Shown: positions 40,787 through 57,607 of the stretch, piece by piece | How positions within the stretch are numbered: position 1 is the stretch's first letter | Layout of the letters: each line of letters begins with the position of its first letter | Sequence record: PX092659.1 | Length of the DNA stretch: 64,000 nt | Reading direction: 5' to 3' (one strand) | DNA from: a phage | Made by a program: the position numbers and the translations under genes | Notes under the pieces: generated by a model | What the model was told of the DNA's origin: nothing | Seen by the model: the letters and a program-made list of their open reading frames with translations, nothing else | Database searches by the model: none

Positions 40787-40792
40787 AACATA

Positions 40793-41291: not shown

Positions 41292-41477
41292 ATGTCTAAG
41301 TTTCAAGAACTCAAGCAAGAGCTAGAAGAATGTGCCTGCCCTGAGTGTAGAGGAATTGGTGAAAGTTCTGATGCAGAAGCAGGAGATACTTTTTGCAATA
41401 TCTGGGTTTGCCCAACTTGCAATGGTACAGGTATTAATCCTAACTGCGGTATTTCCCTAGATATTGAGCGAGGATAA
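41292..41477 (+). CDS. hypothetical small Cys-rich protein (two CxxC pairs)
   Basis: 61 aa; CACPECRG ... CPTCNG. Confidence 0.45.
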   Translation: MSKFQELKQELEECACPECRGIGESSDAEAGDTFCNIWVCPTCNGTGINPNCGISLDIERG

Positions 41478-41578
41478 TACCTGTGAAACTAAAAGATTAT
41501 TATATTGGTTGGTTTGTGGGACTAGTAGTAGTATTTTCACTAGGCTATAATATGTATCAACTAATAAACTGATTACAT

Positions 41579-41655
41579 GGGGGTGTAATCGAATTGGCAT
41601 AGGTACTGGACTTAAAATTCAGGTTTTGTGGGTTCGAATCCCACCACCCCTACCA
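41579..41655 (+). tRNA. tRNA with TAA anticodon (Leu-type anticodon) but short variable arm
   Basis: Acceptor GGGGGTG/CACCCCT, anticodon stem CTGGA/TTCAG with loop CTTAAAA, 5-nt variable region, T-arm GTGGG-TTCGAAT-CCCAC, A73-CCA. Confidence 0.6.
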
Positions 41656-41830
41656 AATTAAGGAAATAAGATGTATAGACATCCACCTCCGCCAACACGT
41701 CGTTCCAGAGAAGTTATCCTCATGGAGTTGACTAAAAACTTCAAGGCAACTCTTGAAGATAGAGATTTAGGCACGGATGAAGACATTGATTTTATTTGTA
41801 GACTATTAAAGATGAAACTGGAGAAACAAC

Positions 41831-42037
41831 ATGGCTAATCCTGAAATTACCGCACAACGTTTCATGCTTAAAGGCATGATTGCTGAAGCAGGTATGACTC
41901 AAGAGGTTGCAGACTTTCATAAGCAATTTCTTGATATTATAACTCTAGCTAAAGAGACTGGAGAAAAAGAACACGGAGCAGCAATTATGGCTATATCTCT
42001 TATTAGTCTAGACTTGGCTGAAGAATCTGGAGTTTAG
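41831..42037 (+). CDS. hypothetical protein
   Basis: 68-aa track ORF; a 56-aa ORF at about 41671-41841 precedes it. Confidence 0.45.
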   Translation: MANPEITAQRFMLKGMIAEAGMTQEVADFHKQFLDIITLAKETGEKEHGAAIMAISLISLDLAEESGV

Positions 42038-42067
42038 CTCCTCCAAACAGAATTTTTAAAAATGTAC

Positions 42068-42097
42068 TTGCCTTTTGCTTTAAATTTCTGATATAAT
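42068..42097 (+). promoter_or_regulatory. sigma70-type promoter (TTGCCT-N18-TATAAT)
   Basis: Cassette-like with 18-nt spacer. Confidence 0.45.
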
Positions 42098-42127
42098 AGT
42101 TATATAAATTGATGAAGGAGTTAACGA

Positions 42128-42403
42128 ATGCAAAATCGTGTTATAGCAGCTGGTATTGAAAGTGCAATCTGTAAATCCTGGGAAGGCTGGGAAGGTGAGA
42201 TTGAATGGCTTTATTTCTATGATGTAGAACTTCTGCCGGAAGTTAAAGCTAAATGTGTTGAAGCTGGCATGGCTCCAGATGCAAAAGCTGATATTGATAT
42301 TTCAATGTCTGAACTTAAAGGTCGTGTAATTACTGTTAGTGATGAGGGCGAAGAAGTCTTCGAACTTCCATTCTCCTTAATTGTCACTCCTAAGTTCGAC
42401 TAA
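42128..42403 (+). CDS. hypothetical protein
   Basis: 91-aa track ORF after GAAGGAG RBS. Confidence 0.5.
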   Translation: MQNRVIAAGIESAICKSWEGWEGEIEWLYFYDVELLPEVKAKCVEAGMAPDAKADIDISMSELKGRVITVSDEGEEVFELPFSLIVTPKFD

Positions 42404-42439
42404 CTAATACAGCACTGAGCAAGTTCTTTAAAATTTGAC

Positions 42440-42468
42440 TTGCTCAGTGCTATAAAACTTGATATAAT
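42440..42468 (+). promoter_or_regulatory. sigma70-type early promoter: TTGCTC-N17-TATAAT
   Basis: Cassette match; drives the RNA-only unit 42496-42938. Confidence 0.55.
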
Positions 42469-42495
42469 AGTTATCTAATTTGGAAAGTTCTTTTT

Positions 42496-42589
42496 AAGGT
42501 AGTTCCTACTTTAGTAGAGTAAATTTTTGGCAGATGGCCCCACCATTTTACCGATAACTCCTAGTCAGTGCGGCAACACTGGCTACCTT
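42496..42589 (+). ncRNA. candidate tRNA-sized structured RNA (non-canonical, no consensus T-loop)
   Basis: Terminal 7-bp helix AAGGTAG/CTACCTT encloses three hairpins (CTAC-ttta-GTAG; ATGG-cccca-CCAT; CAGTG-cggcaa-CACTG); lies between promoter and tRNA-Tyr. Confidence 0.3.
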
Positions 42590-42600
42590 AAAGAGAATTT

Positions 42601-42687
42601 GGGCGTTTATTCCGTAAGTGGTAGCGGAGGGGATTGTAAATCCCTGGTCATTGCGACTCGAGTGGTTCGACTCCATTAACGCCCACC
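42601..42687 (+). tRNA. tRNA-Tyr (anticodon GTA), class II
   Basis: Acceptor GGGCGTT/AACGCCC, anticodon loop TTGTAAA, long variable arm, A73-CCA. Confidence 0.75.
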
Positions 42688-42695
42688 AAATTTAA

Positions 42696-42772
42696 GTCCT
42701 GTTAGACAAACGGGTAAAGTCACTACCCTTTCAAGGTAGGATTTGCGGGTTCGATCCCCGCACAGGACGCCA
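42696..42772 (+). tRNA. tRNA-Glu (anticodon TTC)
   Basis: Acceptor GTCCTGT/ACAGGAC, anticodon stem CTACC/GGTAG with loop CTTTCAA, T-arm GCGGG-TTCGATC-CCCGC. Confidence 0.8.
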
Positions 42773-42780
42773 ATTTCTGC

Positions 42781-42857
42781 ATTCCTAGAGTGTTACTGGA
42801 CAGCATGTCGGTCTCCAAAACCGTACGGTCTAGGTTCGAGTCCTAGTAGGTTTGCCA
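42781..42857 (+). tRNA. tRNA-Trp (anticodon CCA), two U-U mismatches in acceptor stem
   Basis: Anticodon loop CTCCAAA on stem CGGT/ACCG; T-arm CTAGG-TTCGAGT-CCTAG; acceptor ATTCCTA/TAGGTTT pairs at 5 of 7 positions. Confidence 0.55.
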
Positions 42858-42863
42858 AAATTT

Positions 42864-42938
42864 GCACCTTTAGCTGAGATGGATTAGCGCTTGCCTGAAG
42901 AGCTTGAGAGGTTCGTTCGATACGAACAGGGTGCACCA
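42864..42938 (+). tRNA. tRNA-Phe (anticodon GAA)
   Basis: Acceptor GCACCTT/AGGGTGC, D-stem GCTG/TAGC, anticodon loop CTGAAGA, T-arm GTTCG-TTCGATA-CGAAC. Confidence 0.65.
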
Positions 42939-42955
42939 AATTGAAGGAGCTGCTG

Positions 42956-43228
42956 ATGCATCCTGAAAACTTCTTTATTTACTGCGCGGATAAGTCGCTG
43001 AAACGTAGAATTAACAAAGTCTATCATTATCGTGCTAGTCAACAGCCTTATGTATATGCTTTTGACGGTGATCACATTCCACTAGAACAATTATCTTGTG
43101 ATTACATGATATTGAAGAACTTTGACGAGACGAAGATCTCAAGCGTTCATAATCGACAGAATCCCTTAACGTGGAAATATAAGAAGAAAAAGAAAGGCAT
43201 CAAATTCTTAAAAAATGTAGTTGCTTAG
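42956..43228 (+). CDS. hypothetical protein
   Basis: ATG 42956 after GAAGGAG (track ORF starts at TTG 42941). Confidence 0.45.
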   Translation: MHPENFFIYCADKSLKRRINKVYHYRASQQPYVYAFDGDHIPLEQLSCDYMILKNFDETKISSVHNRQNPLTWKYKKKKKGIKFLKNVVA

Positions 43229-43249
43229 TTTCTAAAAGTTCTGTATAAT
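43221..43249 (+). promoter_or_regulatory. sigma70-type early promoter: TTGCTT-N17-TATAAT (within 3' end of previous ORF)
   Basis: Cassette match. Confidence 0.55.
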
Positions 43250-43297
43250 AATTACATAAATTGAACTGGAGAAGCAACATGACAGAACAAGATAAAC

Positions 43298-43373
43298 CGA
43301 CCGTTGGCTGAATGGCTTAGGCGAAGGATTGCAAATCCTTTTTATGTGAGTTCAAATCTCATGCGGTCGTCCA
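43298..43373 (+). tRNA. tRNA-Cys (anticodon GCA)
   Basis: Acceptor CGACCGT/GCGGTCG, anticodon stem AAGGA/TCCTT with loop TTGCAAA, T-arm GTGAG-TTCAAAT-CTCAT. Confidence 0.7.
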
Positions 43374-43380
43374 AATTTTA

Positions 43381-43463
43381 GGGTCGTTAGCCAAGCGGTT
43401 TGGCGGCGGATTGTTAATCCGTGTCGAAAGACAACGTAGGTTCGAATCCTACACGGCCCGCCA
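43381..43463 (+). tRNA. class II-shaped tRNA with GTT (Asn-type) anticodon and G73
   Basis: Acceptor GGGTCGT/ACGGCCC, D-stem GCCA/TGGC, anticodon stem GCGGA/TCCGT with loop TTGTTAA, 13-nt variable arm with GTC/GAC stem, T-arm GTAGG-TTCGAAT-CCTAC. Confidence 0.55.
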
Positions 43464-43565
43464 AATTCTGTGTAGAGTTAAGTAAACCGGTAGCCAACCA
43501 GCTATCATTGCTGACATCGAATTCAGCCACAGATACCATTTTCATTAATAACTGAGGAAACAAGC

Positions 43566-43751
43566 ATGTCCAAGAATGTAATTGCGCAGCTAGAAGTTCA
43601 TCGTGATAGCACTATTAACAATATTGAAGTTGAAAAGAAATACATCGAAGAACTTAAACACGATATACTAGTAAGTCTCAATCGTCTTAATGTACGAAAA
43701 GAGTTTCTTAAAGAACTTAATGCAGCTATTGAAAAACTCAAAGCTGAGTAA
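43566..43751 (+). CDS. hypothetical protein
   Basis: 61-aa track ORF after GAGGAAACAAGC RBS. Confidence 0.45.
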   Translation: MSKNVIAQLEVHRDSTINNIEVEKKYIEELKHDILVSLNRLNVRKEFLKELNAAIEKLKAE

Positions 43752-43760
43752 ATGAATTAT

Positions 43761-43837
43761 GCGACCGGGGCTGGCTTGGTAATGGTACTCCCCTGTCACG
43801 GGAGAGAATGTGGGTTCGAATCCCATCGGTCGCGCCA
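43761..43837 (+). tRNA. tRNA-Asp (anticodon GTC)
   Basis: Acceptor GCGACCG/CGGTCGC, anticodon stem CTCCC/GGGAG with loop CTGTCAC, T-arm TGGG-TTCGAAT-CCCA. Confidence 0.8.
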
Positions 43838-44013
43838 AATAAGGTAGGTTAGCTATGGAATGTAGGGAGTTTACTCCAGAAGAGATAGAGCAGATAAAAG
43901 AATCTGCTATGAAAAATGCTAGAATATCTCTGTCACTGGAAGGTATCATTATTAGTGATGTAAACTTTGAAAAAATCAAAGCCATAGCTGATGAACTGGA
44001 AAAGTAATTTAAT

Positions 44014-44089
44014 ACATCCATAGCTCAATGGTTAGAGCTACCGCCTCTTAAGCGGAGGGTTCTAGGTTCAAGTCCTAGTGGGTGTACCA
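44014..44089 (+). tRNA. tRNA-Lys (anticodon CTT)
   Basis: Acceptor ACATCCA/TGGGTGT, D-arm GCTCAATGGTTAGAGC, anticodon loop CTCTTAA, T-arm CTAGG-TTCAAGT-CCTAG. Confidence 0.65.
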
Positions 44090-44114
44090 AATTAATTTAG
44101 TATGAGAATATACT

Positions 44115-44462
44115 ATGCGTAATGCTAAAGAAGAGCTGTTACTCGCCTTAAAAAATACCAATTCTAAAGTTAAGTGTATTAAAATAGAATTTGGGTATTA
44201 TGGGGACAAAAAAGTCTGGGTATTACCTTTAGGTTATACAGAAGAAGACATTGAGGGGTTTCTTAATAACCTAGACTTTGAATATGATTCTGGATACGGT
44301 GGACAATTACTTTATGGTAATGTATGGTTTGCCGATGGAACTTGGCTAGAACGTGGGGAATATGATGGTGCTGAGTGGTGGGAATACAAGGCTACACCAG
44401 CAATCCCAGAGGAATGCCGAACAATTAATGGTGAAGTAGATAATACTTTACGGTTAAACTAA
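44115..44462 (+). CDS. hypothetical protein
   Basis: 115-aa track ORF. Confidence 0.5.
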   Translation: MRNAKEELLLALKNTNSKVKCIKIEFGYYGDKKVWVLPLGYTEEDIEGFLNNLDFEYDSGYGGQLLYGNVWFADGTWLERGEYDGAEWWEYKATPAIPEECRTINGEVDNTLRLN

Positions 44463-44855
44463 TAAAATTTCAGTGCAGAACACGGAGCTAGCAATTCGGA
44501 AGTGCTGACTCATGATAAGCTGCCTATGTACTTGCAAAGCGGTCGTGTCCAAGACTCGGACTCTTGCACTGAAAACAATCAAACATTCTAGCGTGGTTGA
44601 TGGGGAAACCAGCTTGGCTAGGGCAGAAGCTCGTTCGATTCGAGTGAAAGAATGGTTCTCGTAAGTCCGCACAAGTGATAGCAGGTTCGAGTCCTGTCTA
44701 GAATGATACTATAAAGTTTACTTATTGAGTAGGTTCCGATAGATCGGCGGGTCTATTCTGGCAGTTAAGAGAGGTCTCGCAAACTTCTTTGTCAGCCGTG
44801 GGGTTGGTAGCCTCCAGGTGGCCTACACAATAAGTAAATTTATTAAAAATTCATT

Positions 44856-44884
44856 TGCTATTTCGCTTAATTCTCGGTATAATA
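44856..44884 (+). promoter_or_regulatory. sigma70-type early promoter: TTGCTA-N17-TATAAT
   Basis: Cassette match (coordinates here may be off by 1 nt). Confidence 0.55.
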
Positions 44885-44915
44885 TATCTTATAAAGTGTT
44901 GAGAAGGAAAGCAAA

Positions 44916-45113
44916 ATGAAAAAAGTTTTACTGCTGTCTGTATTCCTACTTACTGGTTGTTTTAAACTTGACTCAACCATTAATAAAGAGTATGAATTTG
45001 CTAAAAATTTCTGTGGCGGAGAGAGTAATATAAAGAATTTCTACATATATAGTACAATTCCTAGTACCGTTTATTGTGTAGACGGACGAATTATTAATAT
45101 TCCTCCACAATAA
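44916..45113 (+). CDS. small lipoprotein (signal peptide with lipobox LLTGC)
   Basis: 65 aa; MKKVLLLSVFLLTGC then mature Cys; AAGGAAAGC RBS. Confidence 0.55.
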   Translation: MKKVLLLSVFLLTGCFKLDSTINKEYEFAKNFCGGESNIKNFYIYSTIPSTVYCVDGRIINIPPQ

Positions 45114-45122
45114 AAGAATTAA

Positions 45123-45198
45123 CAGTGCGTAGCGCAGTTGGTAGCGTGGGAGCCTTGGATGCTTCGGGTCGCAGGTTCGAGTCCTGCCGCACTGACCA
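45123..45198 (+). tRNA. tRNA-Pro (anticodon TGG)
   Basis: Acceptor CAGTGCG/CGCACTG, D-arm GCGCAGTTGGTAGCGT, anticodon stem GGAGC/GCTTC with loop CTTGGAT, T-arm GCAGG-TTCGAGT-CCTGC. Confidence 0.75.
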
Positions 45199-45204
45199 AA
45201 CAAT

Positions 45205-45282
45205 TGCGGGTTAGATCTCTGGTAGAGATCGCTAGTCTCATAAGCTAGAAAGAGGTAGGTTCGATTCCTGCACCCGCTTCCA
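45205..45282 (+). tRNA. tRNA with CAT anticodon (Met/Ile2 type), 1-72 mismatch
   Basis: Anticodon stem CTAGT/GCTAG with loop CTCATAA; T-arm GTAGG-TTCGATT-CCTGC; acceptor TGCGGGT/ACCCGCT has a U-U at position 1-72. Confidence 0.6.
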
Positions 45283-45471
45283 TTTTAATAGAGGGTTTCG
45301 AAATGAAAGTATTTCGATTAGTAGTAAGTGACAAACGTTTAGGTAAGAATACCTCAAAATCCTTACTTGCTCATTATGGAAAAGATGAGAAAGAAGTAAT
45401 GGCGGAGTTTGGGATTAATCACCCTTACTTGAAAGTTCACTCTATTAAAGAAGTATATAATGGTTACTAAT

Positions 45472-45550
45472 AGATCGCTAGCTCAATAGGTTTAGTAGCA
45501 TCCGACTTTTAATCGGAAGGTTCTGGGTTCGAGTCCCAGGCGATCTACCA
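45472..45550 (+). tRNA. tRNA-Lys (anticodon TTT)
   Basis: Perfect acceptor AGATCGC/GCGATCT, anticodon stem TCCGA/TCGGA with loop CTTTTAA, T-arm CTGGG-TTCGAGT-CCCAG. Confidence 0.8.
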
Positions 45551-45568
45551 ATTTCAAGAAAAACGCAG

Positions 45569-45597
45569 TTGCTTAATGCGTAATTTCTTGTTACAAT
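45569..45597 (+). promoter_or_regulatory. sigma70-type early promoter: TTGCTT-N17-TACAAT
   Basis: Cassette variant; followed by about 235 nt of ORF-free leader before tRNA-Ala. Confidence 0.55.
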
Positions 45598-45835
45598 ATT
45601 TATATAAATTGATGAGGAGAAATCCTCGTCATAGTTCACTAAGGTATTAGCTCGACCTAGGACTGGCTGCCAAAAAGCACGATCCCTACGATTCGGGAGA
45701 AGTTCTAGATTAGTCCACTAGATTCAGCGGCAACTGAATAGTGTATCGGGTTTGCGAGATGACGCGGTTCCTTCCGCTCGAAGCGAAGGTGCTGTAGTTA
45801 CGCCGAGCTAATAGCCTTAGTAAACTAAAGAATTT

Positions 45836-45910
45836 GGGCGAATAGTGTCAGCGGGAGCACACCAGACTTGCAATCTGGTAGGGAGGGTTCGAGTCCCTCT
45901 TTGTCCACCA
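45836..45910 (+). tRNA. tRNA-Ala (anticodon TGC)
   Basis: Acceptor GGGCGAA/TTTGTCC with G3-U70 wobble (Ala identity pair), anticodon stem CCAGA/TCTGG with loop CTTGCAA, T-arm GAGGG-TTCGAGT-CCCTC. Confidence 0.8.
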
Positions 45911-45915
45911 AATAC

Positions 45916-45992
45916 GCGTGATTGATGGAATTGGCATACATACCGTCCTTAGAAGTCGGGTTTTGAGGGTTCGAATCCCTTGTCACGCACCA
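45916..45992 (+). tRNA. tRNA with TAG anticodon (Leu-type anticodon) but short variable arm
   Basis: Acceptor GCGTGAT/GTCACGC, anticodon loop CTTAGAA on stem CCGTC/GTCGG (one mismatch), 5-nt variable region, T-arm GAGGG-TTCGAAT-CCCTT, A73. Confidence 0.55.
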
Positions 45993-46104
45993 AATTTGAT
46001 GGTCAGAGTAAATTAAACCTACTATCTCGGTTGAGCTGTTTTAATGGGTTCGAATCCCAGCGAGGCGTAACTGCCTGGCGTGATAGAGGCATCATCTTAT
46101 TACT

Positions 46105-46195
46105 GGAAGAGCAAATCGAATTGGCGACGAAAACCGCTTGGAAAGTGGCTGACTGGTAAAACGGCTTGAGAGTTCAAATCTCTCCTCTTCCGCCA
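46105..46195 (+). tRNA. tRNA-Ser (anticodon GGA), class II
   Basis: Acceptor GGAAGAG/CTCTTCC, anticodon loop TTGGAAA on 4-bp stem, long variable arm, T-arm GAGAG-TTCAAAT-CTCTC, G73-CCA. Confidence 0.6.
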
Positions 46196-46214
46196 AACAC
46201 TTGAGGTAATAATA

Positions 46215-46562
46215 ATGTTAGCAAAAGATAAAGCTCTAGAGTTTTTAGCATCTTTAGATGAAGATAAGATTATAGATGCTGCTGAAAAAGCTGGAATGCC
46301 CGATTTAACATATCTGGAACGTGCTATTATTGCTCGTGATAAACTACAGAAAGAGTTTGCTATTGCCCAGGAGGAGTTTTATACTCGCTATAACGCTCTT
46401 ACTAAGCAAATTGAAAATGAGTGTTCCCATACTTGGGGAGTAACAGAAAACCTAGGTAATGATCACGATGGCTGGTCTAAAGTAAAAATTACCTACTATC
46501 ATCGTAGGACTTGTAAAATTTGTGGAAAAGTAGAAGATTTCACTAGTACGAGTGACTATTAG
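46215..46562 (+). CDS. hypothetical protein
   Basis: 115-aa track ORF after GAGGTAATAATA RBS. Confidence 0.5.
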   Translation: MLAKDKALEFLASLDEDKIIDAAEKAGMPDLTYLERAIIARDKLQKEFAIAQEEFYTRYNALTKQIENECSHTWGVTENLGNDHDGWSKVKITYYHRRTCKICGKVEDFTSTSDY

Positions 46563-46575
46563 TATAATAAATACT

Positions 46576-46665
46576 AGAAGATAGGACGTAGTGGTACGTA
46601 ACTGGTCTTGAAAACCAGCCCGCTGTAGCGATACGGTGATGGTTCGACTCCATTATCTTCTGCCA
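46576..46665 (+). tRNA. tRNA-Ser (anticodon TGA), class II
   Basis: Acceptor AGAAGAT/ATCTTCT, anticodon stem CTGGT/ACCAG with loop CTTGAAA, long variable arm, T-arm GATGG-TTCGACT-CCATT, G73-CCA. Confidence 0.75.
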
Positions 46666-47228
46666 ATTAACTATAAGGAAGTCTTATGAGCAAAACAGTT
46701 ACTGTAACAATGAAGGACGGTAAAAAATTTAAAGCATGTCTTCATGAAACAGATAAGGGGTGGATGGCTTATTTGCCACACCTAGATTCCACCGGGTACG
46801 GAATGACCCAACGTGAAGCTATTGTTGATGCTTTAAATGAGGCTTCTGCTGGTTTATAAAAAATTCTTGAAGTATGCCGGAATCGGTAGACGGGGCTGCC
46901 TAAAAGGTTTATAGGGAACATCCACTCCCTGCAACATACCTCATAAAGCGGCTGAGATAAATGGTCTATCTCGTGAAGGTTCAAGTCCTTCTGCTTCTTG
47001 ATACATCTATGGCTCAAAGTGTAACGGTGCTATTTGATGCTCTTGGTAAGACTTCCCCGACATGCGTTCGGGAGTAAGCTGCTAAGACTAGAGTAGAAGA
47101 GTTTCTGAGAGCCGCCACAATTGAAAATTCGTACTCGTCTTGAGCTGCGTGCAATAGGAGATAACTTGATTAGTATTCTAGAACATGCTAATTGAGGATG
47201 GTTTCGCTAACCCTGCGAGTTTTCAATT

Positions 47229-47305
47229 GTGGCTATATCATAATTGGTTAATGATCCTGATTGTGAATCAGGCCTATGTGGATTCGAATTCCACTAGCCA
47301 CCCCA
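47229..47305 (+). tRNA. tRNA-His (anticodon GTG)
   Basis: Acceptor GTGGCTA/TAGCCAC, C73, anticodon stem CCTGA/TCAGG with loop TTGTGAA, T-arm GTGGA-TTCGAAT-TCCAC. Confidence 0.8.
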
Positions 47306-47330
47306 AATTAACTTAAATAGGAAATAAAAT

Positions 47331-47528
47331 ATGGCTGATTTCTGCAAACAATGCTCCATTGATATGTGGGGCAGAGATACTGGTGATCTTTCTGGTTTGA
47401 TTACAGAAGCTGAGGTCAAAGAAGGTTATGGTGCAGTTGTGATTTGCGAAGGATGCGGAGTTATTCGAGTAGATCATGAAGGCAAACGTTTAAAAGAACC
47501 GGAAAACTTAGGAGAAACAAATGAGTAA
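47331..47528 (+). CDS. hypothetical small Cys-containing protein
   Basis: 65-aa track ORF; CKQC ... CEGCG. Confidence 0.45.
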   Translation: MADFCKQCSIDMWGRDTGDLSGLITEAEVKEGYGAVVICEGCGVIRVDHEGKRLKEPENLGETNE

Positions 47529-47757
47529 TGCTTTAATTAGTGAAATTATGTTAACACGTCTTGCAGAACTGCAAACTCTTCGAGATGAATCTCAGAATAA
47601 CTTAGCCTATCATAAACAGATGGTAGATACTCTTACTACTCGTATTGAAACTTACGAGCGTGATATTGCAGCATTACAGGCTCTTTTCTCAGTATCAGCA
47701 CCAGATACTTTAGAGCAGCCTGTTGTATCTCAGCCAGTAGAAACAGCATCTAGTTAA
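47521..47757 (+). CDS. hypothetical protein
   Basis: 78-aa track ORF, start overlaps upstream stop. Confidence 0.45.
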   Translation: MSNALISEIMLTRLAELQTLRDESQNNLAYHKQMVDTLTTRIETYERDIAALQALFSVSAPDTLEQPVVSQPVETASS

Positions 47758-47766
47758 TAGCATTTT

Positions 47767-47842
47767 TGGAGTGTAGATCAATTGGCAGATCGTCGGCCTC
47801 TGACTCCGAAGGTTCCTGGTTCGATCCCAGGCACTCCAGCCA
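47767..47842 (+). tRNA. tRNA-Gln (anticodon CTG)
   Basis: Acceptor TGGAGTG/CACTCCA, D-stem GATC/GATC, anticodon loop CTCTGAC, T-arm CCTGG-TTCGATC-CCAGG. Confidence 0.75.
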
Positions 47843-47848
47843 AATAAT

Positions 47849-47924
47849 TGGAGAGTAGTGTAACGGTTAGCACAACGGCCTTTGACTCCGTTAATGGTAG
47901 GTTCGATTCCTCCTTCTCCAGCCA
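47849..47924 (+). tRNA. tRNA-Gln (anticodon TTG)
   Basis: Acceptor TGGAGAG/TTCTCCA, anticodon loop CTTTGAC; near-duplicate of the adjacent Gln(CTG) gene. Confidence 0.7.
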
Positions 47925-47932
47925 AGTAATAA

Positions 47933-48008
47933 GCGGTTAAGCACACGGGTTGTGTCGCAGGCCTTCCAAGCCTCGCTGAGTAGGGTTCGATTCCCTCTAG
48001 CCGCTCCA
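47933..48008 (+). tRNA. tRNA-Gly (anticodon TCC)
   Basis: Acceptor GCGGTTA/TAGCCGC, anticodon stem AGGC/GCCT with loop CTTCCAA, T-arm AGGG-TTCGATT-CCCT. Confidence 0.65.
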
Positions 48009-48024
48009 ACTTTAAGGAAACGTT

Positions 48025-48276
48025 ATGCACGTTTTTGAGTTTCGTAATAAAAGTACCGATAAACGAGTTATTGTTATTGGAGAAACATACCGAGCATACG
48101 AACAAACTGACGGCTCTGTCATCCTGAATGATGAGAAAGGAGGTTTTAGCTTTTATCCAGAAGAACCTTATGAAGAGTTTCGAAAACAATTTAACCTAGA
48201 CTGGAGAAAGCATTTAAACACTGTTGCTTCATCTGTAGTATTGCCAACTACCAGTACTGTACTATCTAATGGCTGA
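48025..48276 (+). CDS. hypothetical protein
   Basis: 83-aa track ORF; a 52-aa ORF follows at about 48271-48432. Confidence 0.45.
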   Translation: MHVFEFRNKSTDKRVIVIGETYRAYEQTDGSVILNDEKGGFSFYPEEPYEEFRKQFNLDWRKHLNTVASSVVLPTTSTVLSNG

Positions 48277-48443
48277 TAACCTAAAAGTCAAGATCGACAA
48301 ACAAAAGAAACGTGTAGAAGTAGAGATTGGTGAAGAACGTGTAGCCTTCACCTTTGAATTCCTACAACAAATGGCAATGGTAGTTATGACTGATAAGTCT
48401 CCTGTTATTGAAAAAGAAATCCCGTTGAAATAACGGGATCATC

Positions 48444-48518
48444 GCTCCTAAAGCATTGCTGGCGATGCAGTTGCCTTGTAAGCATCTGAACCGGGTTCGA
48501 TTCCTGGTGGGAGCACCA
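48444..48518 (+). tRNA. tRNA-Thr (anticodon TGT)
   Basis: Acceptor GCTCCTA/TGGGAGC, D-arm GCATTGCTGGCGATGC, anticodon loop CTTGTAA, T-arm CCGGG-TTCGATT-CCTGG. Confidence 0.75.
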
Positions 48519-48533
48519 AATTTAAAAATTCAT

Positions 48534-48562
48534 TTGCTTTCTCTCTTATTTATTGTTATAAT
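48534..48562 (+). promoter_or_regulatory. sigma70-type early promoter: TTGCTT-N17-TATAAT
   Basis: Cassette match. Confidence 0.6.
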
Positions 48563-48592
48563 ATTTATATAAATTAATGAGAGGGAAACCAA

Positions 48593-48883
48593 ATGAAACG
48601 TTATCTTTCTGTTGTGTTCCAAACTGGTGGTCAACGCTATACCTATGAATTTCCTAGCTCTTGGAAGATCAAAGAAGGTGATCAAGTAGTAGTGTTAACA
48701 CCGCGAGATGGATATAAAGTAGTAACGGTTAAACAAGTATTCCCAAAAGATCATGAACCAGCTAAAGGCATTCGCTATAAGATGATTCATGGTGTGGTTC
48801 GTCAAGTACCACGAACTGAGGTAGAAGTAGATAAGACTGGAGAAGCTAAATTCCGTTATACTTCTTACCTAGATAGTGTGTGA
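48593..48883 (+). CDS. hypothetical protein
   Basis: 96-aa track ORF after GAGAGGGAAACC RBS. Confidence 0.5.
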   Translation: MKRYLSVVFQTGGQRYTYEFPSSWKIKEGDQVVVLTPRDGYKVVTVKQVFPKDHEPAKGIRYKMIHGVVRQVPRTEVEVDKTGEAKFRYTSYLDSV

Positions 48884-48898
48884 TGTAAATATTTTAAT

Positions 48899-48975
48899 GC
48901 TTCGGTAGCTTAGCGATCTAAAGCACTCGGCTGATAACCGAGAGATCGGGGGTTTAAATCCCTCCCGGAGTACCA
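48899..48975 (+). tRNA. tRNA-Ile (anticodon GAT)
   Basis: Acceptor GCTTCGG/CCGGAGT, D-stem GCTT/AAGC, perfect anticodon stem CTCGG/CCGAG with loop CTGATAA, T-arm GGGGG-TTTAAAT-CCCTC. Confidence 0.75.
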
Positions 48976-49071
48976 AATTTAGGAATTAAGACTATGCGTC
49001 CAGGAAAGTTTAAAAAAGCTAGTTGGTCTAAAGAGTATAAAGAATACTTACTTAGTCTAATAAAACATAAT

Positions 49072-49147
49072 AGTTAGTTGGCAGAGTGGTTATGCACCTC
49101 CTTCATACGGAGCGACTACAGTGGTTCAAATCCACTACTAACTACCA
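49072..49147 (+). tRNA. tRNA with CAT anticodon (Met/fMet/Ile2 type)
   Basis: Perfect acceptor AGTTAGT/ACTAACT, anticodon stem CTCC/GGAG with loop TTCATAC, T-arm AGTGG-TTCAAAT-CCACT. Confidence 0.7.
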
Positions 49148-52496: not shown

Positions 52497-52531
52497 AGCC
52501 CAGCCTGCAAAGTTGCGACTGGGCTATTTTT
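52497..52531 (+). terminator. rho-independent terminator
   Basis: AGCCCAG ... CTGGGCT stem with 15-nt loop, followed by ATTTTT. Confidence 0.6.
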
Positions 52532-52546
52532 ATAATAAAATTTTAG

Positions 52547-52606: not shown

Positions 52607-53305
52607 ATGAGGATTATTTCTAAGTTCGCCGATGTTTATGATTTGCAGAACAGTTTGTTCGACCCAGATCGTGTTTGGGAACGTAAAACTGAAGAGTTGC
52701 TGGTTAAAGTAACCGATGATGCAGAAAAGAACATTGTGCATACTCGCCAGGTATTTCGTGATGGCTCGCTATCTTTTCGTGGTGATTTCGAATATTTTGT
52801 AAACCCACTATTTGTTGCAGGTGAAGTTTACTGGTTGCACGAGCTGTACTGCTGGCATCCGGCATTTAGCTTCAAAACGTTCAACCTCGACACTATGTTC
52901 GATAAAATGGAAGAGATGGGATTGCATGCCCGCTCTTACTTAATGGATAAGAGTCGTGGAGATGTTCGTGAAACAATGCGTGATTTGCTCATTGAAGCAA
53001 AACCTAAAGCAGAACGTATCTTGTCCGAACTGCGTGTACCGATTGCATATGTGAAAGGTATTAAAAAGAACGATAATGATGATGTTCGTAACTTCGTGAT
53101 TCAGACTAACATTCGTTTCCATCAGTCAGGTATTCCGTGGCAGGAAATTGAAAGTAACTTATATCGTTTACACCAGATGATCGAGCAATATATCTGGGGC
53201 GTGTTAGGAACCGGTGAGCCTGATATGATTACCACTTCCGATAAGGATCGCTTAACCGCACATGGATTTGATACTGTTACTTCTTTTAGGAATATGAAAA
53301 GATGA
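52607..53305 (+). CDS. hypothetical protein
   Basis: 232-aa track ORF after CAAGAGGATTAAAT RBS. Confidence 0.5.
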   Translation: MRIISKFADVYDLQNSLFDPDRVWERKTEELLVKVTDDAEKNIVHTRQVFRDGSLSFRGDFEYFVNPLFVAGEVYWLHELYCWHPAFSFKTFNLDTMFDKMEEMGLHARSYLMDKSRGDVRETMRDLLIEAKPKAERILSELRVPIAYVKGIKKNDNDDVRNFVIQTNIRFHQSGIPWQEIESNLYRLHQMIEQYIWGVLGTGEPDMITTSDKDRLTAHGFDTVTSFRNMKR

Positions 53306-53799
53306 TCAGTAAGGAAGAGCTAAGAAGAATGTTCGATTACCAAGAAGATGGTAATCTTATCTGGAAACCCAGGGAAGGGGACGAACATTTTAATAAGATA
53401 TTCGCCGGAACAGTAGCAGGATCTAGACAAAGTACAGGGCATAGAGTAGTTGAACTATATAATGGTTCCATAGCTATAGGGGCACATAGATTAATCTATG
53501 CATGGCATACTGGAGAATGGCCTGAAATAGTTGATCACAAGGATAAAGACCCAACTAATGATAGATTTGAGAATCTAAGACCTGCTACAAGATCTGATAA
53601 TGCTTGTAACCAAAAAGTAAGAAGCGATAACCATTTAGGCGTTAAAAATATCCATAGAAAAACAAATGGGACTTACCAAGTAAGAATTACCAAACACGGT
53701 AAGCAAGTTTCGAAAACACTTAAGAGTTTGGAAGAGGCTATAAAATGGCGGGATACCAAACTCAAAGAACTCCACGGTGAGTTTGCGAGTACAGGCTAA
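53302..53799 (+). CDS. HNH homing endonuclease (paralog family)
   Basis: 165 aa; MISKEELRRMFDYQEDGNLIWKP and AHRLIYAWHTGEWPEIVDHKDKDPTNDRFENL. Confidence 0.65.
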   Translation: MISKEELRRMFDYQEDGNLIWKPREGDEHFNKIFAGTVAGSRQSTGHRVVELYNGSIAIGAHRLIYAWHTGEWPEIVDHKDKDPTNDRFENLRPATRSDNACNQKVRSDNHLGVKNIHRKTNGTYQVRITKHGKQVSKTLKSLEEAIKWRDTKLKELHGEFASTG

Positions 53800-54242
53800 T
53801 GCGGAAATGGTTTGTAGACTTAGTTTGGAATAACAAGATATACATCCTGGGAGCAGGTCTAGCGATAGGCATCGGGTTCGGTGCTTATCACTTAGTAGAT
53901 AAAGTGGAGACTTTAGCAGGAGATCTTGCGGTAGCTACTAAAAAGATTTCTTCTCTAGAAACCTCCCTTAATAAGGTGAAAGCTGAAAGCGAACTTCGTG
54001 AGACTAGAATGAATCAGTATTTCACGATGAATAATATTTCTCAAGCAGACTTAGATAAGAAAATTGGTCAGCTTGATAAGGCACTTAGCCGCCAAGATAT
54101 TATAGCTGCAAAGCCCGGATTGGTAACATTAATTGCTAAAAAGCAGAGTAAAGAGTTCGAGGAAAGATTAGCGTGTTTAACTGGAAACTTGGAATACTGC
54201 TCGCAGCCGCAATCACAATCACAGGCTGTGCACAAGAAATAG
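53799..54242 (+). CDS. TM plus coiled-coil protein (i-spanin-like candidate)
   Basis: 147 aa; N-terminal TM helix (IYILGAGLAIGIGFGAY) then coiled-coil-like periplasmic region; 3' end overlapped out of frame by a lipoprotein ORF. Confidence 0.4.
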   Translation: MRKWFVDLVWNNKIYILGAGLAIGIGFGAYHLVDKVETLAGDLAVATKKISSLETSLNKVKAESELRETRMNQYFTMNNISQADLDKKIGQLDKALSRQDIIAAKPGLVTLIAKKQSKEFEERLACLTGNLEYCSQPQSQSQAVHKK

Positions 54243-54526
54243 AGTCAGAACCCACACACGAGCTACCAACAGCTCATGTAGACTGGCCTAAAGGACTTCA
54301 ACCTTGTAGCTTTGACTTTAAGTTTGAAAAGAAATTAGCTACAAATGGAGAAGATGGCGTAGTAGTTGTTGTACCATATAAAGATTGGAATGCAAAAGCA
54401 AAATGTGAGGAAGCAGTTTACTCTTACATTTCACGACTGACTGGTATGGTTTGCTTCTATCGTCAAGATTTACAAGAAAAACGTTGCTTAGTTTACTATC
54501 CACCCATTACAAATAGGAAAGATTAA
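54173..54526 (+). CDS. lipoprotein (lipobox ITGC); possible o-spanin-like partner, atypically long
   Basis: 117 aa; MFNWKLGILLAAAITITGC signal/lipobox; start embedded in the 3' end of the preceding ORF. Confidence 0.45.
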   Translation: MFNWKLGILLAAAITITGCAQEIESEPTHELPTAHVDWPKGLQPCSFDFKFEKKLATNGEDGVVVVVPYKDWNAKAKCEEAVYSYISRLTGMVCFYRQDLQEKRCLVYYPPITNRKD

Positions 54527-55890: not shown

Positions 55891-55900
55891 GTAATTTTAA

Positions 55901-55930
55901 GCCAGGGTTTAACGACCCTGGCTTTTCTTT
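55901..55930 (+). terminator. rho-independent terminator
   Basis: GCCAGGG tttaacga CCCTGGC followed by TTTTCTTTT. Confidence 0.7.
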
Positions 55931-56046
55931 TATCTAAAATTCTTCTTGACAACGACAAAATTTTATGCTCCAGAAGTGATCTTTAAAAACACATTGTAAT
56001 TTTCCTCCAAAATTAGTATAATGGTACTGGTTAGAGGAGGTTACAA

Positions 56047-56703
56047 TTGGAAAAGTTCTTACAATTATTAACGGTACTGCTCCAAGAAGCGAAAGATCCA
56101 GCATCGCTTCTTAAACGTCTGCTAACTATCTTAGTTGCTGTCATTATTTTCTTATTTGTTAGTAATACTAGTGAGGTGATGTCGTTCTTAAAGACTTTCT
56201 CCACGTCTGCGGTTCTACAGGATGTTCAAACTCAAAGGATAAGTAATTTTCCTAACGTAGCTAGAGAAAAGAGCATGGTGCTTTTTTCCCAAACGGGTGC
56301 GGATGCTGTTTTTGTAGTCAAGTATAAACCCGATGCCATTAATGATTATTCTAACATTATTGCATGGGAAAGCAATGCGCAATTAGATAGGGCTGACTTG
56401 GCCGATAAAGCGGTAAATAAGACGTCTGAGCTATATAGACGTCACTTAGACGGCTTTAACTACGCATCGGATTTAAGTGTAAAAGTAAATAAATACATGG
56501 GGTTAAATATACCTGCGTTTAAGAACGTTACTTTTAATTACATATACACTTGTCCGTACTTCAATCTAAACAATATCTATGCTGGATATATTGGTATTGC
56601 TTGGAAAGATAATCCTGTAGATGCAGCCGATTCTGAGAAATTTAACGAGTATTTAACAAAGCTCTGTTCCCCACAACAGAGATCTTTAGGTAGATCAATA
56701 TGA
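56047..56703 (+). CDS. holin-like membrane protein (TTG start)
   Basis: 218 aa; TTG start 6 nt after GAGGAGG; N-terminal TM helix LLTILVAVIIFLFV; immediately upstream of and overlapping the endolysin. Confidence 0.55.
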   Translation: MEKFLQLLTVLLQEAKDPASLLKRLLTILVAVIIFLFVSNTSEVMSFLKTFSTSAVLQDVQTQRISNFPNVAREKSMVLFSQTGADAVFVVKYKPDAINDYSNIIAWESNAQLDRADLADKAVNKTSELYRRHLDGFNYASDLSVKVNKYMGLNIPAFKNVTFNYIYTCPYFNLNNIYAGYIGIAWKDNPVDAADSEKFNEYLTKLCSPQQRSLGRSI

Positions 56704-57113
56704 GTTTTAAATTTGGTAAAAATAGCGAAAAACAATTAGCTACCGTTAAGCCAGAGCTACAAAAAGTAGCTCGTAGAGCTTTAGAATTATCTCCTTATGA
56801 TTTCACGATCGTACAGGGTATTCGTACAGTAGCACAAAGTGCCCAGAATATTGCTAATGGTACTTCATTCTTAAAAGATCCTAGTAAAAGCAAGCATATT
56901 ACTGGGGATGCTCTTGATTTTGCTCCATACATTAATGGTAAGATTGATTGGAATGATTTAGAAGCATTTTGGGCAGTTAAAAAGGCTTTTGAACAAGCAG
57001 GTAAAGAACTAGGCATTAAACTTCGTTTTGGTGCTGATTGGAATGCTTCTGGAGACTATCACGATGAAATAAAACGTGGTACCTATGATGGCGGTCATGT
57101 CGAACTAGTTTAA
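56700..57113 (+). CDS. endolysin, L-alanyl-D-glutamate peptidase type (M15/LAS-like)
   Basis: 137 aa; zinc-binding motifs HITGDALDF and DGGHVEL; ATGA overlap with holin stop. Confidence 0.75.
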   Translation: MSFKFGKNSEKQLATVKPELQKVARRALELSPYDFTIVQGIRTVAQSAQNIANGTSFLKDPSKSKHITGDALDFAPYINGKIDWNDLEAFWAVKKAFEQAGKELGIKLRFGADWNASGDYHDEIKRGTYDGGHVELV

Positions 57114-57190: not shown

Positions 57191-57607
57191 ATGTTTGCAG
57201 AACTATTCACTATGATGCTGCTAGGTATCTGGAAAATAAGTCTAGTAGTATTCGTTTTAATGATAGTCTTTACTATCATTGCATTAACTACCAGAAATAG
57301 CTTATTAATAAAGGTTATTCACGGACTAGAGTATATAATTATGGGTTCATTCGGCGTTTGTAAATGCAATTGCCATAGAGATACGAAATATTGTTGGTTA
57401 TGGATGGAACTAGAGAATCCCATATCCATAGCTTTGGCTGTTTCATTCGGTATGATTCTTATGGCCCTTACTCTAGCATTAATACCTTTGATGTTAGCTG
57501 GGGGAGTTACAGCGTATTTCACCCTTTTCTCCCCGATACTTATGTACTCAATTTACCCAATAACTATGTATCTAGTTAGGAAAAGATTTATACATGTAGT
57601 AGATTAA
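57191..57607 (+). CDS. hypothetical polytopic membrane protein
   Basis: 138 aa; several hydrophobic helices; GGAG RBS. Confidence 0.45.
   Translation: MFAELFTMMLLGIWKISLVVFVLMIVFTIIALTTRNSLLIKVIHGLEYIIMGSFGVCKCNCHRDTKYCWLWMELENPISIALAVSFGMILMALTLALIPLMLAGGVTAYFTLFSPILMYSIYPITMYLVRKRFIHVVD

What the first reader, a model, noticed from the sequence alone, without database searches (positions are those of the whole stretch)
53799..54526. Embedded-gene pair resembling a spanin unit, but with a long Cys-containing lipoprotein
A TM plus coiled-coil ORF (147 aa) is overlapped out of frame at its 3' end by a lipoprotein ORF (lipobox ITGC) of 117 aa with five further Cys. The architecture recalls i-spanin/o-spanin, but the lipoprotein is twice the usual o-spanin size and is 1.5 kb upstream of the holin/endolysin pair, so it may be a different envelope-targeting lipoprotein.
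Basis: partly seen in the sequence, partly recalled or inferred. Interest (0 to 1): 0.4.

Follow-up and report, generated by a model that had tools for sequence, protein, structure and literature searches.

The report
Known T5-type two-component spanin genes
The two overlapping genes are the already catalogued spanin pair of a T5-like phage, relatives of the tested T4 spanins PseT.3 and PseT.2 that break the host outer membrane at the end of lysis, so the finding is real but ordinary.

Summary
The window is a T5-like phage (Tequintavirus; 94-97.5% nucleotide identity to T5 and relatives). Both ORFs exist exactly as reported: 53799-54242 (147 aa; N-terminal membrane helix, then a long helix) and 54173-54526 (117 aa; lipobox ITG|C), overlapping by 70 nt in different frames.

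They are homologues of T5.045 and T5.044, which RefSeq annotates as "Rz-like spanin". Kongari et al. 2018 (PMC6139136) describe them as the "T5 family" of overlapped two-component spanins with a 70-bp overlap. Both proteins fall in the same PHROG families (739 and 812) as T4 PseT.3 and PseT.2, a pair that complements a lambda Rz/Rz1 defect. The two cysteines essential in PseT.2 are invariant here (C94, C105).

- T4-type o-spanins are folded proteins of 96-119 aa.
- T4's spanin genes are also unlinked to its holin and endolysin genes.
- There is no similarity to the T5 exclusion lipoprotein Llp.

Corrections: the layout is "overlapped", not "embedded", and there are four further Cys, not five.

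One small point goes beyond the literature I read. T5-like members carry an extra, perfectly co-varying Cys pair in the o-spanin (C45/C78) and a C-x7-C pair in the i-spanin. Spanin function in T5-like phages is inferred by homology, not tested. Verdict: already known, low interest.

The parts
53799..54242 (+). i-spanin gene (147 aa), homologue of T5.045 and T4 PseT.3. Type II inner-membrane protein with a periplasmic helical or coiled-coil domain, the conserved KPGLV motif, and a C-terminal C126-x7-C134.
   Evidence: ORF. phrog_739 'Rz-like spanin' at 8.6e-37; T4 PseT.3 hits the same PHROG at 1.3e-37. BLASTP against PseT.3: 28% identity, E 9e-6. T5 annotation. Alignment A2.
53838..53894 (+). 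Codons 14-32 of the i-spanin: the predicted transmembrane helix IYILGAGLAIGIGFGAYHL.
   Evidence: Kyte-Doolittle 19-residue mean of 1.57. Positive charges lie on the N-terminal side.
54173..54526 (+). o-spanin gene (117 aa precursor, GTG start), homologue of T5.044 and T4 PseT.2. Outer-membrane lipoprotein with a linker, a beta-hairpin, a long helix and a C-terminal CxYRxxLxExxC motif.
   Evidence: ORF. phrog_812 'Rz-like spanin' at 4.4e-30; T4 PseT.2 hits the same PHROG at 5e-42. BLASTP against PseT.2: 29% identity, E 1e-7. All 41 database homologues carry Pfam PF26831. AF2 model with pLDDT 79. BFVD matches to named o-spanin, Rz1 and PseT.2 proteins.
54173..54229 (+). Lipoprotein signal peptide (residues 1-18) and the acylated Cys19. 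The lipobox ITGC is at 54218-54229.
   Evidence: Read directly from the sequence. Lipobox Cys invariant in 39 of 39 homologues, and the +2 residue is never Asp.
54173..54242 (+). 70-nt dual-coding overlap. It encodes the i-spanin C-terminus (ACLTGNLEYCSQPQSQSQAVHKK) and, in another frame, the o-spanin signal peptide.
   Evidence: Only 2 of 70 positions differ from T5, against 8-12% divergence in the flanks. Kongari 2018 reports the same 70-bp overlap for T5 and SPC35.
54159..54163 (+). Shine-Dalgarno-like GAGGA, 9 nt upstream of the o-spanin GTG and inside the i-spanin gene.
   Evidence: Sequence. A GAGG or AGGAG element sits at the same place in T5, Sealy and My1.
56047..56703 (+). Holin gene (218 aa, T4 T-type). 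First step of the same lysis pathway, in a separate downstream transcription unit.
   Evidence: Pfam PF11031 Phage_holin_T at 4.8e-113. phrog_860 holin. Terminator at 55899-55924 and promoter-like site at 55994-56022. T5 annotation.
56700..57113 (+). Endolysin gene (137 aa, M15-type peptidase). Second step of the lysis pathway.
   Evidence: phrog_465 endolysin at 2.2e-54. Weak Peptidase_M15_4 match. Annotated as T5 lys.

Best explanation
The pair is the two-component spanin of a T5-like phage.

The 147-aa protein is the i-spanin. It is anchored in the inner membrane by one N-terminal helix (N-in, C-out) and extends a helical, partly coiled-coil rod into the periplasm. The 117-aa protein is the o-spanin. 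It is exported and cleaved by signal peptidase II, lipidated on Cys19 and sorted by Lol to the inner leaflet of the outer membrane (Ala at +2). It has a flexible linker followed by a small folded domain of a beta-hairpin and a helix.

By analogy with lambda Rz/Rz1 and T4 PseT.3/PseT.2, the periplasmic ends of the two proteins bind each other and form a bridge threaded through the peptidoglycan. The T-type holin opens the inner membrane and the M15 endolysin then destroys the wall. The complexes are then free to cluster and change shape, which fuses or disrupts the inner and outer membranes. This is the last step of lysis.

The invariant C94/C105 pair is expected to form the homotypic o-spanin disulfide links shown to be essential in T4.

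What is shown here: the ORFs, their targeting signals, their homology and their conservation. What is inferred from the T4 and lambda experiments: lipidation, complex formation, disulfide chemistry and outer-membrane disruption.
For: - The window is a Tequintavirus: 3.8 kb around the pair is 94.4-97.5% identical to T5 and relatives.
- RefSeq annotates T5.045 and T5.044 at the homologous place as Rz-like spanins, with notes on similarity to T4 PseT proteins.
- Both window proteins and both T4 spanins hit the same PHROGs, 739 and 812.
- Direct BLASTP against PseT.2 gives E 1e-7 and against PseT.3 gives E 9e-6. C94 and C105 align to the T4 PseT.2 cysteines.
- Kongari 2018 (PMC6139136) shows that pseT.3/pseT.2 complement lambda RzamRz1am and that both PseT.2 cysteines are essential.
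- The same paper lists T5, SPC35 (147 and 117 aa, overlapped, 70 nt), EPS7 and Stitch as overlapped two-component spanins and discusses a "T5 family".
- In 39 homologues the lipobox Cys, W38-P39, Y85, C94, Y96, R97, L100, E102 and C105 are invariant.
- The AF2 model (pLDDT 79) has a linker, a beta-hairpin at 50-66 and a helix at 69-96. This is broadly like the linker/beta/alpha layout Kongari predicts for PseT.2.
- BFVD fold matches are named o-spanin, Rz1 and PseT.2 proteins.
- The i-spanin has a membrane helix and a long helix over residues 28-77.
- The gene order T5.047 homologue, spanins, dnk, clp is kept in distant Demerecviridae: Klebsiella phage Sealy and Pectobacterium phage My1.
Against: - I found no experiment on the T5-family proteins themselves. 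"T5 spanin" occurs only in the bioinformatic census.
- Identity to the tested T4 proteins is only 28-29%.
- The local Pfam-A and NCBIfam copies gave no significant hit, so family membership rests on PHROGs, BLASTP and the precomputed PF26831 label.
- T5-like members carry four cysteines that T4 lacks. The disulfide scheme therefore need not be the T4 one.
- The genes lie in a different transcription unit from holin and endolysin.
Confidence: 0.93

Rival explanations
1. The lipoprotein is not a spanin subunit. It is a different envelope-targeting lipoprotein, for example a receptor-blocking superinfection-exclusion protein like T5 Llp or Cor. On this view the upstream membrane protein is unrelated or only a partner for that role.
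For: It is longer and more Cys-rich than lambda Rz1. It is not adjacent to the holin and endolysin genes. T5-like phages are known to make a small Cys-containing exclusion lipoprotein (annotation). No direct experiment on T5.044 was found.
Against: BLASTP against T5 Llp finds no alignment at E <= 100, and Llp has its own locus next to oad. The protein is homologous over more than 80% of its length to T4 PseT.2, a tested o-spanin, including both essential Cys. It is always paired with a PseT.3 homologue in T5-like and T4-like phages. There are no PADLOC hits.
Confidence: 0.03
2. The pair is a working spanin, but the T5-lineage additions change how it works. These are C45/C78 in the o-spanin and the C-terminal C-x7-C in the i-spanin. 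One possibility is covalent i-spanin dimers in addition to o-spanin dimers. Another is a heterotypic i-o disulfide.
For: C45/C78 is Cys/Cys in all 17 T5-like sequences and aromatic or aliphatic plus Trp in all 22 T4-like sequences, never one Cys alone. The i-spanin RLAC-x7-C is kept in T5, Shivani (separated genes), Sealy and My1, and is absent from T4 and phiP4-3. With 2 + 4 periplasmic Cys, the total of six is rare in the census: 16 of 526 pairs, and four is the maximum recorded for an o-spanin.
Against: The perfect co-variation of C45/C78 is explained most simply by an intramolecular staple that does not alter the mechanism. Kongari 2018, as quoted, reports that the required disulfide links in lambda and T4 are homotypic. 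There are no biochemical data, and I had no model coordinates to measure Cys-Cys distances.
Confidence: 0.3
3. The out-of-frame lipoprotein ORF is a chance ORF inside and after the i-spanin gene and is not expressed.
For: It starts with GTG, overlaps another gene, and is not annotated in several GenBank records, for example HMD-P4.
Against: The ORF is conserved in 722 phage records. Invariant motifs are shared with proteins down to about 20% identity. A Shine-Dalgarno element is conserved 9 nt upstream, and the relatives checked (T5, Shivani, Sealy, My1, phiP4-3, T4) start with ATG at the same position. The overlap shows strong dual-frame constraint. Kongari 2018 notes that gene callers routinely miss overlapped o-spanin genes.
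Confidence: 0.01

Closest known systems
Phage T5 spanins T5.045 (i-spanin) and T5.044 (o-spanin): the 'T5 family' of Kongari et al. 2018 (T5, SPC35, EPS7, Stitch, AKFV33, FFH1, DT57C, My1, Shivani, phiR201)
   Same: Same lengths (147 and 117 aa), same 70-nt overlap, and the same neighbours (hegF upstream; dnk and a Clp-like protease downstream). Protein identity to T5 is 96% for the i-spanin and 93% for the o-spanin. The SPC35 i-spanin is 96.6% identical.
   Different: Only allelic differences. The window uses GTG instead of ATG as the o-spanin start and TAG instead of TAA as the i-spanin stop. There are a few substitutions, and the N-terminal 12 residues of the i-spanin vary between family members.
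Phage T4 PseT.3 / PseT.2 (experimentally validated two-component spanin)
   Same: Same PHROGs (739 and 812) and the same precomputed Pfam PF26831. Shared KPGLV motif in the i-spanin. Shared HxxWP and C-Y-Y-R-x-x-L-x-E-x-x-C motifs in the o-spanin, with both essential Cys. Folded rather than proline-rich o-spanin. Genes not next to holin or endolysin. Partnered with a T-type holin.
   Different: Only 28-29% identity. The T4 genes overlap by 4 nt ("separated") against 70 nt here. The T5-type o-spanin is about 18 aa longer, through a KLATNG-type insertion, a longer linker and a C-terminal tail, and has an extra C45/C78 pair. The T5-type i-spanin has a roughly 30-aa C-terminal extension with C-x7-C, whereas T4 PseT.3 has no Cys. 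The endolysin partner is an M15 peptidase rather than T4 lysozyme.
Lambda Rz / Rz1 (prototype spanin)
   Same: Same topology pair: a type II inner-membrane protein plus an outer-membrane lipoprotein. Same presumed role as the third lysis step. Same reliance on periplasmic cysteines. Genes sharing DNA in different frames.
   Different: No detectable sequence similarity; the Pfam scan gave no Rz or Rz1 family hit. Rz1 is fully embedded in Rz, is 60 aa, and is described as unstructured in PMC6139136. Here the genes are overlapped, the protein is 7% Pro, and a beta-hairpin plus helix is predicted. Lambda's genes sit in the lysis cassette.
T5 Llp (lpp, T5.158), the FhuA-blocking exclusion lipoprotein
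   Same: A small phage-encoded lipoprotein processed by signal peptidase II (T5.158 annotation note).
   Different: No sequence similarity. Different locus, next to the receptor-binding protein gene. No paired inner-membrane partner.

Membership tests
Two-component spanin (generic definition, Summer 2007 / Kongari 2018) | i-spanin with a single N-terminal transmembrane domain, type II topology | tested here: met
   Kyte-Doolittle mean of 1.57 over residues 14-32. There are 3 K/R against 1 D/E on the N-terminal side. This is a prediction only; topology was not measured.
Two-component spanin (generic definition, Summer 2007 / Kongari 2018) | Periplasmic i-spanin domain that is largely alpha-helical or coiled-coil | tested here: met
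   AF2 helices at 28-77 and 82-96. Only coiled-coil proteins are drawn from the PDB. The census lists a coiled coil at 31-73 for the 96.6%-identical SPC35 protein.
Two-component spanin (generic definition, Summer 2007 / Kongari 2018) | o-spanin with a signal peptidase II signal, a lipobox Cys and an outer-membrane sorting signal (no Asp at +2) | tested here: met
   AAITITG|CAQ. The Cys is invariant in 39 of 39 homologues and +2 is A, S, T or Q throughout. Actual lipidation was not tested.
Two-component spanin (generic definition, Summer 2007 / Kongari 2018) | The two genes are adjacent, in an embedded, overlapped or separated arrangement | tested here: met
   Overlapped by 70 nt, with the o-ORF offset by +2.
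Two-component spanin (generic definition, Summer 2007 / Kongari 2018) | At least one periplasmic Cys available for homotypic intermolecular disulfides | tested here: met
   Four in the o-spanin and two in the i-spanin. The rule is stated in PMC6139136. Disulfides themselves were not tested.
Two-component spanin (generic definition, Summer 2007 / Kongari 2018) | Required for outer-membrane disruption; complements a lambda Rz/Rz1 defect | not testable with these tools
   Needs genetics. It was done for T4 PseT.3/PseT.2. I found no such experiment for any T5-family member.
T4 PseT.3/PseT.2 superfamily (PHROG 739 / 812; Pfam PF26831) | Significant sequence similarity of both subunits to the T4 proteins | tested here: met
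   phrog_739 at 8.6e-37 and phrog_812 at 4.4e-30; the T4 proteins hit the same PHROGs. BLASTP E values of 9e-6 and 1e-7. PF26831 is precomputed on all homologues.
T4 PseT.3/PseT.2 superfamily (PHROG 739 / 812; Pfam PF26831) | Two conserved C-terminal o-spanin cysteines 11 residues apart, both essential in T4 | tested here: met
   C94 and C105 align with the T4 cysteines and are invariant in 39 of 39 homologues. Their essentiality comes from PMC6139136.
T4 PseT.3/PseT.2 superfamily (PHROG 739 / 812; Pfam PF26831) | Structured o-spanin (beta plus alpha elements) rather than a proline-rich coil | tested here: met
   AF2 model with pLDDT 79: strands at 50-55 and 61-66, helix at 69-96. BFVD matches to a named PseT.2 protein and named o-spanins.
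T5 spanin family (Kongari 2018) | Close identity to T5.045 and T5.044, with a 70-bp overlap and the T5 gene neighbourhood | tested here: met
   96% and 93% protein identity to T5. Identical lengths and overlap. Same neighbours.
Lambda Rz/Rz1 family | Sequence membership (Rz and Rz1 Pfam families) and embedded gene architecture | tested here: not met
   The Pfam-A scan at E <= 0.1 gave no Rz or Rz1 hit. The o-spanin gene extends 284 nt beyond the i-spanin stop.
Llp/Cor-type superinfection-exclusion lipoproteins | Sequence similarity to T5 Llp and a locus beside the receptor-binding protein gene | tested here: not met
   BLASTP finds no alignment at E <= 100. In T5, Llp lies next to oad, far from this locus.

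The most novel reading that the evidence does not exclude
T5-lineage spanins may use a disulfide scheme different from both studied models. There are two parts.
- A lineage-specific intramolecular C45-C78 staple in the o-spanin domain. It would replace the aromatic/Trp pair found at those positions in T4-like proteins.
- A conserved C-x7-C at the i-spanin C-terminus. It could make covalent i-spanin dimers as in lambda Rz, on top of the T4-type double o-spanin linkage. Less likely, it could form a heterotypic i-o disulfide, which the census paper did not report for lambda or T4.
Probability: 0.3. Interest if true: 0.25.

Novelty: already known. Interest (0 to 1): 0.08.

Why it matters
It matters little beyond correct annotation. 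The pair is the expected third component of the lysis system of a T5-like phage and is already in RefSeq annotation and in the published spanin census.

It has some practical value. Many GenBank records of T5-like phages still call one or both genes "hypothetical", or omit the overlapped o-spanin gene altogether. This locus shows why automated gene callers miss overlapped lipoprotein genes.

The only open biology is that no T5-family spanin has been tested, and the lineage-specific extra cysteines have not been examined.

Tried and rejected
- Local Pfam-A and NCBIfam scans of both proteins gave nothing significant. The Pfam family precomputed in the large protein database (PF26831) did not appear in the local Pfam-A scan, possibly because the local copy lacks that model.
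- PDB sequence searches with single proteins and with family profiles found no solved relative. The o-spanin gave only noise, including a signal-peptide-only match to 9rps_D "Phage lipoprotein" at E 0.79. The i-spanin gave only generic coiled coils.
- Foldseek of the o-spanin model against the PDB gave no match better than E = 4.
- PADLOC gave no hit.
- BLASTP against T5 Llp gave no alignment, so the exclusion-lipoprotein idea was rejected.
- A first guess at the T4 pseT coordinates was wrong and was corrected.
- Two literature calls failed because a search term was too short.
- A search for T5.044, T5.045 and similar locus names found no relevant paper.
- I could not measure Cys-Cys distances, because model coordinates are not exposed.
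- The i-spanin was modelled from a single sequence only. Its membrane helix and C-terminus are low-confidence.
Full report
**What is in the sequence**

- 53799-54242 starts with ATG and encodes 147 aa.
- 54173-54526 encodes 117 aa. Its GTG is the only possible start in that frame after the upstream stop.
- They share 70 nt, with the second ORF offset by +2.

The 147-aa protein has one strongly hydrophobic segment at residues 14-32 (Kyte-Doolittle mean 1.57). More positive charge lies before it than after it, which fits an N-in/C-out anchor. A single-sequence AlphaFold2 model gives a continuous helix over residues 28-77, with pLDDT 86-92 in its centre, followed by shorter helices. A family profile draws only generic coiled coils from the PDB.

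The 117-aa protein begins MFNWKLGILLAAAITITG|CAQ. This is a textbook signal peptidase II signal with Ala at +2. The holin gene starts 1,520 nt downstream.

**Where the window comes from**

The 3.8 kb around the pair is 94.4-97.5% identical to phage T5 and many Salmonella and Escherichia Tequintaviruses. The neighbours are the T5 genes:
- the homing endonuclease hegF, whose TAA stop overlaps the i-ORF's ATG;
- dNMP kinase;
- a Clp-like protease;
- after a strong terminator (55899-55924) and a promoter-like site (55994-56022), a T4 T-type holin (Pfam PF11031, 4.8e-113) and an M15-type endolysin.

**What the pair is**

RefSeq T5 annotates the homologous genes T5.045 and T5.044 as "Rz-like spanin", with notes on similarity to T4 PseT proteins.

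The evidence gathered here agrees.
- The window proteins hit phrog_739 (8.6e-37) and phrog_812 (4.4e-30), both labelled "Rz-like spanin".
- T4 PseT.3 and PseT.2, read from the T4 genome, hit the same two PHROGs at 1.3e-37 and 5e-42.
- Direct BLASTP gives 28% identity (E 9e-6) to PseT.3, including the AAKPGLV/AHKPGLV motif. It gives 29% identity (E 1e-7) to PseT.2, including C[FY]YRQ[DE]L[QK]E.[RK]C.
- A profile search of the large protein database returned 41 homologues. T5-like and T4-like alike, they all carry the same precomputed Pfam family PF26831. Several are named o-spanin, Rz1 or Rz-like spanin by their sources.
- tblastn finds the lipoprotein in 722 phage records, from T5-like genomes of about 110 kb to T4-like genomes of about 170 kb.

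**What the literature says**

Kongari et al. 2018 (PMC6139136) show that pseT.3/pseT.2 complement a lambda RzamRz1am lysis defect. They show that both periplasmic cysteines of PseT.2 are essential and conserved. [quoted passage not shown]

The same paper lists a "T5" family among both the i-spanin and the o-spanin families. Its members are T5, EPS7, Stitch, SPC35, AKFV33, FFH1, DT57C, My1, Shivani and phiR201. The paper states that the T5 spanins overlap by 70 bp. In Shivani and phiR201, a homing-endonuclease gene of about 700 bp separates the two genes. Its supplementary tables give SPC35 as overlapped by 70 nt, with a 147-aa i-spanin and a 117-aa o-spanin, and T5 with a 117-aa o-spanin. The SPC35 i-spanin is 96.6% identical to the window's.

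The finding is therefore a published, catalogued gene pair.

- *Size.* In the 39-sequence alignment, T4-like o-spanins are 96-102 aa and T5-like ones 97-119 aa. A 30-entry excerpt of o-spanin lengths from the census ran from 61 to 149 aa. The extra length over T4 comes from a longer linker, a short KLATNG-type insertion and a C-terminal tail.
- *Cysteines.* C94 and C105 are the T4-essential pair and are invariant in 39 of 39 homologues.
- *Distance from holin and endolysin.* This is the T4 situation too. The gene order T5.047 homologue, i-spanin, o-spanin, dnk, clp is kept in the distant Demerecviridae Sealy and My1.
- *Alternative lipoprotein.* T5's own exclusion lipoprotein Llp lies at another locus and shows no similarity. 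There is no PADLOC hit.

**Structure**

The AF2 model of the o-spanin, built on 39 sequences, has mean pLDDT 79. It shows the signal helix, an unstructured linker to about residue 49, a beta-hairpin (50-55 and 61-66) and a long helix (69-96). This is broadly like the linker/beta/alpha layout Kongari et al. predict for PseT.2.

Foldseek against viral predicted structures returns named proteins: o-spanin (Providencia phage PR1), Rz1 (Shigella phage Sf25), PseT.2 (Acinetobacter phage 133) and o-spanin (Pseudomonas phage AAT-1). Neither sequence nor fold searches find a solved structure of this family.

**Mechanism**

The following is inferred from the lambda and T4 work cited above and from established spanin biology. 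It was not tested here.
1. The i-spanin sits in the inner membrane with its helical rod in the periplasm.
2. The o-spanin is lipidated and sorted to the outer membrane.
3. Their periplasmic ends bind each other through the peptidoglycan mesh.
4. After the holin triggers and the endolysin removes the wall, the complexes cluster and collapse. This fuses or disrupts the two membranes.
5. Homotypic disulfides through C94 and C105 are expected to be required, as in T4.

**Small observations beyond what I read in the literature**

- *Co-varying cysteines in the o-spanin.* C45 and C78 co-vary perfectly. They are Cys/Cys in all 17 T5-like sequences and Y/W/H/L/I plus Trp in all 22 T4-like ones, never one Cys alone. 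This suggests an intramolecular disulfide that replaces a hydrophobic contact.
- *Conserved cysteines in the i-spanin.* The C-terminal RLAC-x7-C (C126, C134) is conserved in T5, Sealy, My1 and Shivani. In Shivani the genes do not overlap, so the motif is not merely a by-product of the overlap. It is absent from T4 and phiP4-3.
- *Total cysteine count.* Six periplasmic Cys in total is uncommon in the census: 16 of 526 pairs, with four the maximum recorded for an o-spanin.
- *Constraint on the overlap.* Between the window and T5 the overlap differs at only 2 of 70 positions. These are the o-spanin start (GTG against ATG) and the i-spanin stop (TAG against TAA). The flanks diverge by 8-12%.

**Verdict**

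The spanin reading is right, and the "something different" hedge is not supported. The pair is already known from RefSeq annotation and the 2018 census. Function in T5-like phages still rests on homology to T4 rather than on direct experiment, and the lineage-specific cysteines are untested. Interest is low.

Noticed in passing
window 54305-54307 and 54404-54406 (o-spanin C45, C78); alignment A3: C45 and C78 co-vary perfectly across 39 homologues. They are Cys/Cys in all 17 T5-like sequences and aromatic or aliphatic plus Trp in all 22 T4-like ones. This suggests a lineage-specific intramolecular disulfide.
   Followed up: partly
window 54174-54200 (i-spanin C126-x7-C134); alignment A2: The i-spanin C-terminal RLAC-x7-C motif is conserved in Demerecviridae, including Shivani, where the spanin genes are separated. 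It is absent from the T4-like i-spanins, which have no Cys.
   Followed up: partly
window 54173-54242: The 70-nt dual-coding overlap differs from T5 at only its first and last bases: GTG against ATG at the o-spanin start, and TAG against TAA at the i-spanin stop. The flanking single-coding parts are 8-12% diverged. The window's GTG start is unusual, since T5, Shivani, Sealy, My1, phiP4-3 and T4 all use ATG.
   Followed up: yes
window 53302-53801: The stop of the HNH homing endonuclease gene (hegF homologue, 165 aa) overlaps the i-spanin ATG (TAATG). The first ~12 residues of the i-spanin differ between family members (compare EPS7 and Shivani), perhaps reshaped by homing-endonuclease traffic.
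   Followed up: partly
L005 (Salmonella phage Shivani) 1207-1905; also IrisVonRoten and LmqsSP1: [quoted passage not shown] This converts the overlapped layout into a separated one and regenerates a new o-spanin N-terminus (MHKIKLG...).
   Followed up: partly
window 56047-57113: The holin is a clear T4 T-type holin (PF11031, 4.8e-113) and the spanins are T4-type, but the endolysin is an M15-type peptidase rather than a T4-like lysozyme. The lysis module is therefore a mosaic relative to T4.
   Followed up: no
window 57191-57607: A 138-aa ORF lies just downstream of the endolysin gene. It appears to correspond to T5.039, annotated only as a hypothetical protein with four transmembrane domains. 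A role in lysis control was not examined.
   Followed up: no
window 37090-49147: A cluster of 24 tRNA genes lies on the + strand. It includes three tRNA-Met(CAT) genes and pairs for Lys, Leu, Ser and Gln, and resembles the T5 tRNA region.
   Followed up: no
window 55899-55924 and 55994-56022; 52513-52541: A strong intrinsic terminator (11-bp stem) follows the Clp-like protease gene, and a near-consensus promoter (TTGTAA-17-TATAAT) precedes the holin gene. The spanins are therefore transcribed with dnk and clp from a promoter-like site near 52513, not with holin and endolysin.
   Followed up: partly
GenBank records of relatives: Annotation is inconsistent. Many T5-like records call the pair "hypothetical". 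Some label the o-spanin region "i-spanin". HMD-P4 omits the o-spanin CDS and names the T5.047 homologue "DNA polymerase III". RefSeq T5 calls the 246-nt gene T5.036 "major head protein".
   Followed up: no
Protein database against local Pfam copy: All o-spanin homologues carry the precomputed Pfam family PF26831. The local Pfam-A scan returned nothing for the same protein, so the local copy may lack that model.
   Followed up: no
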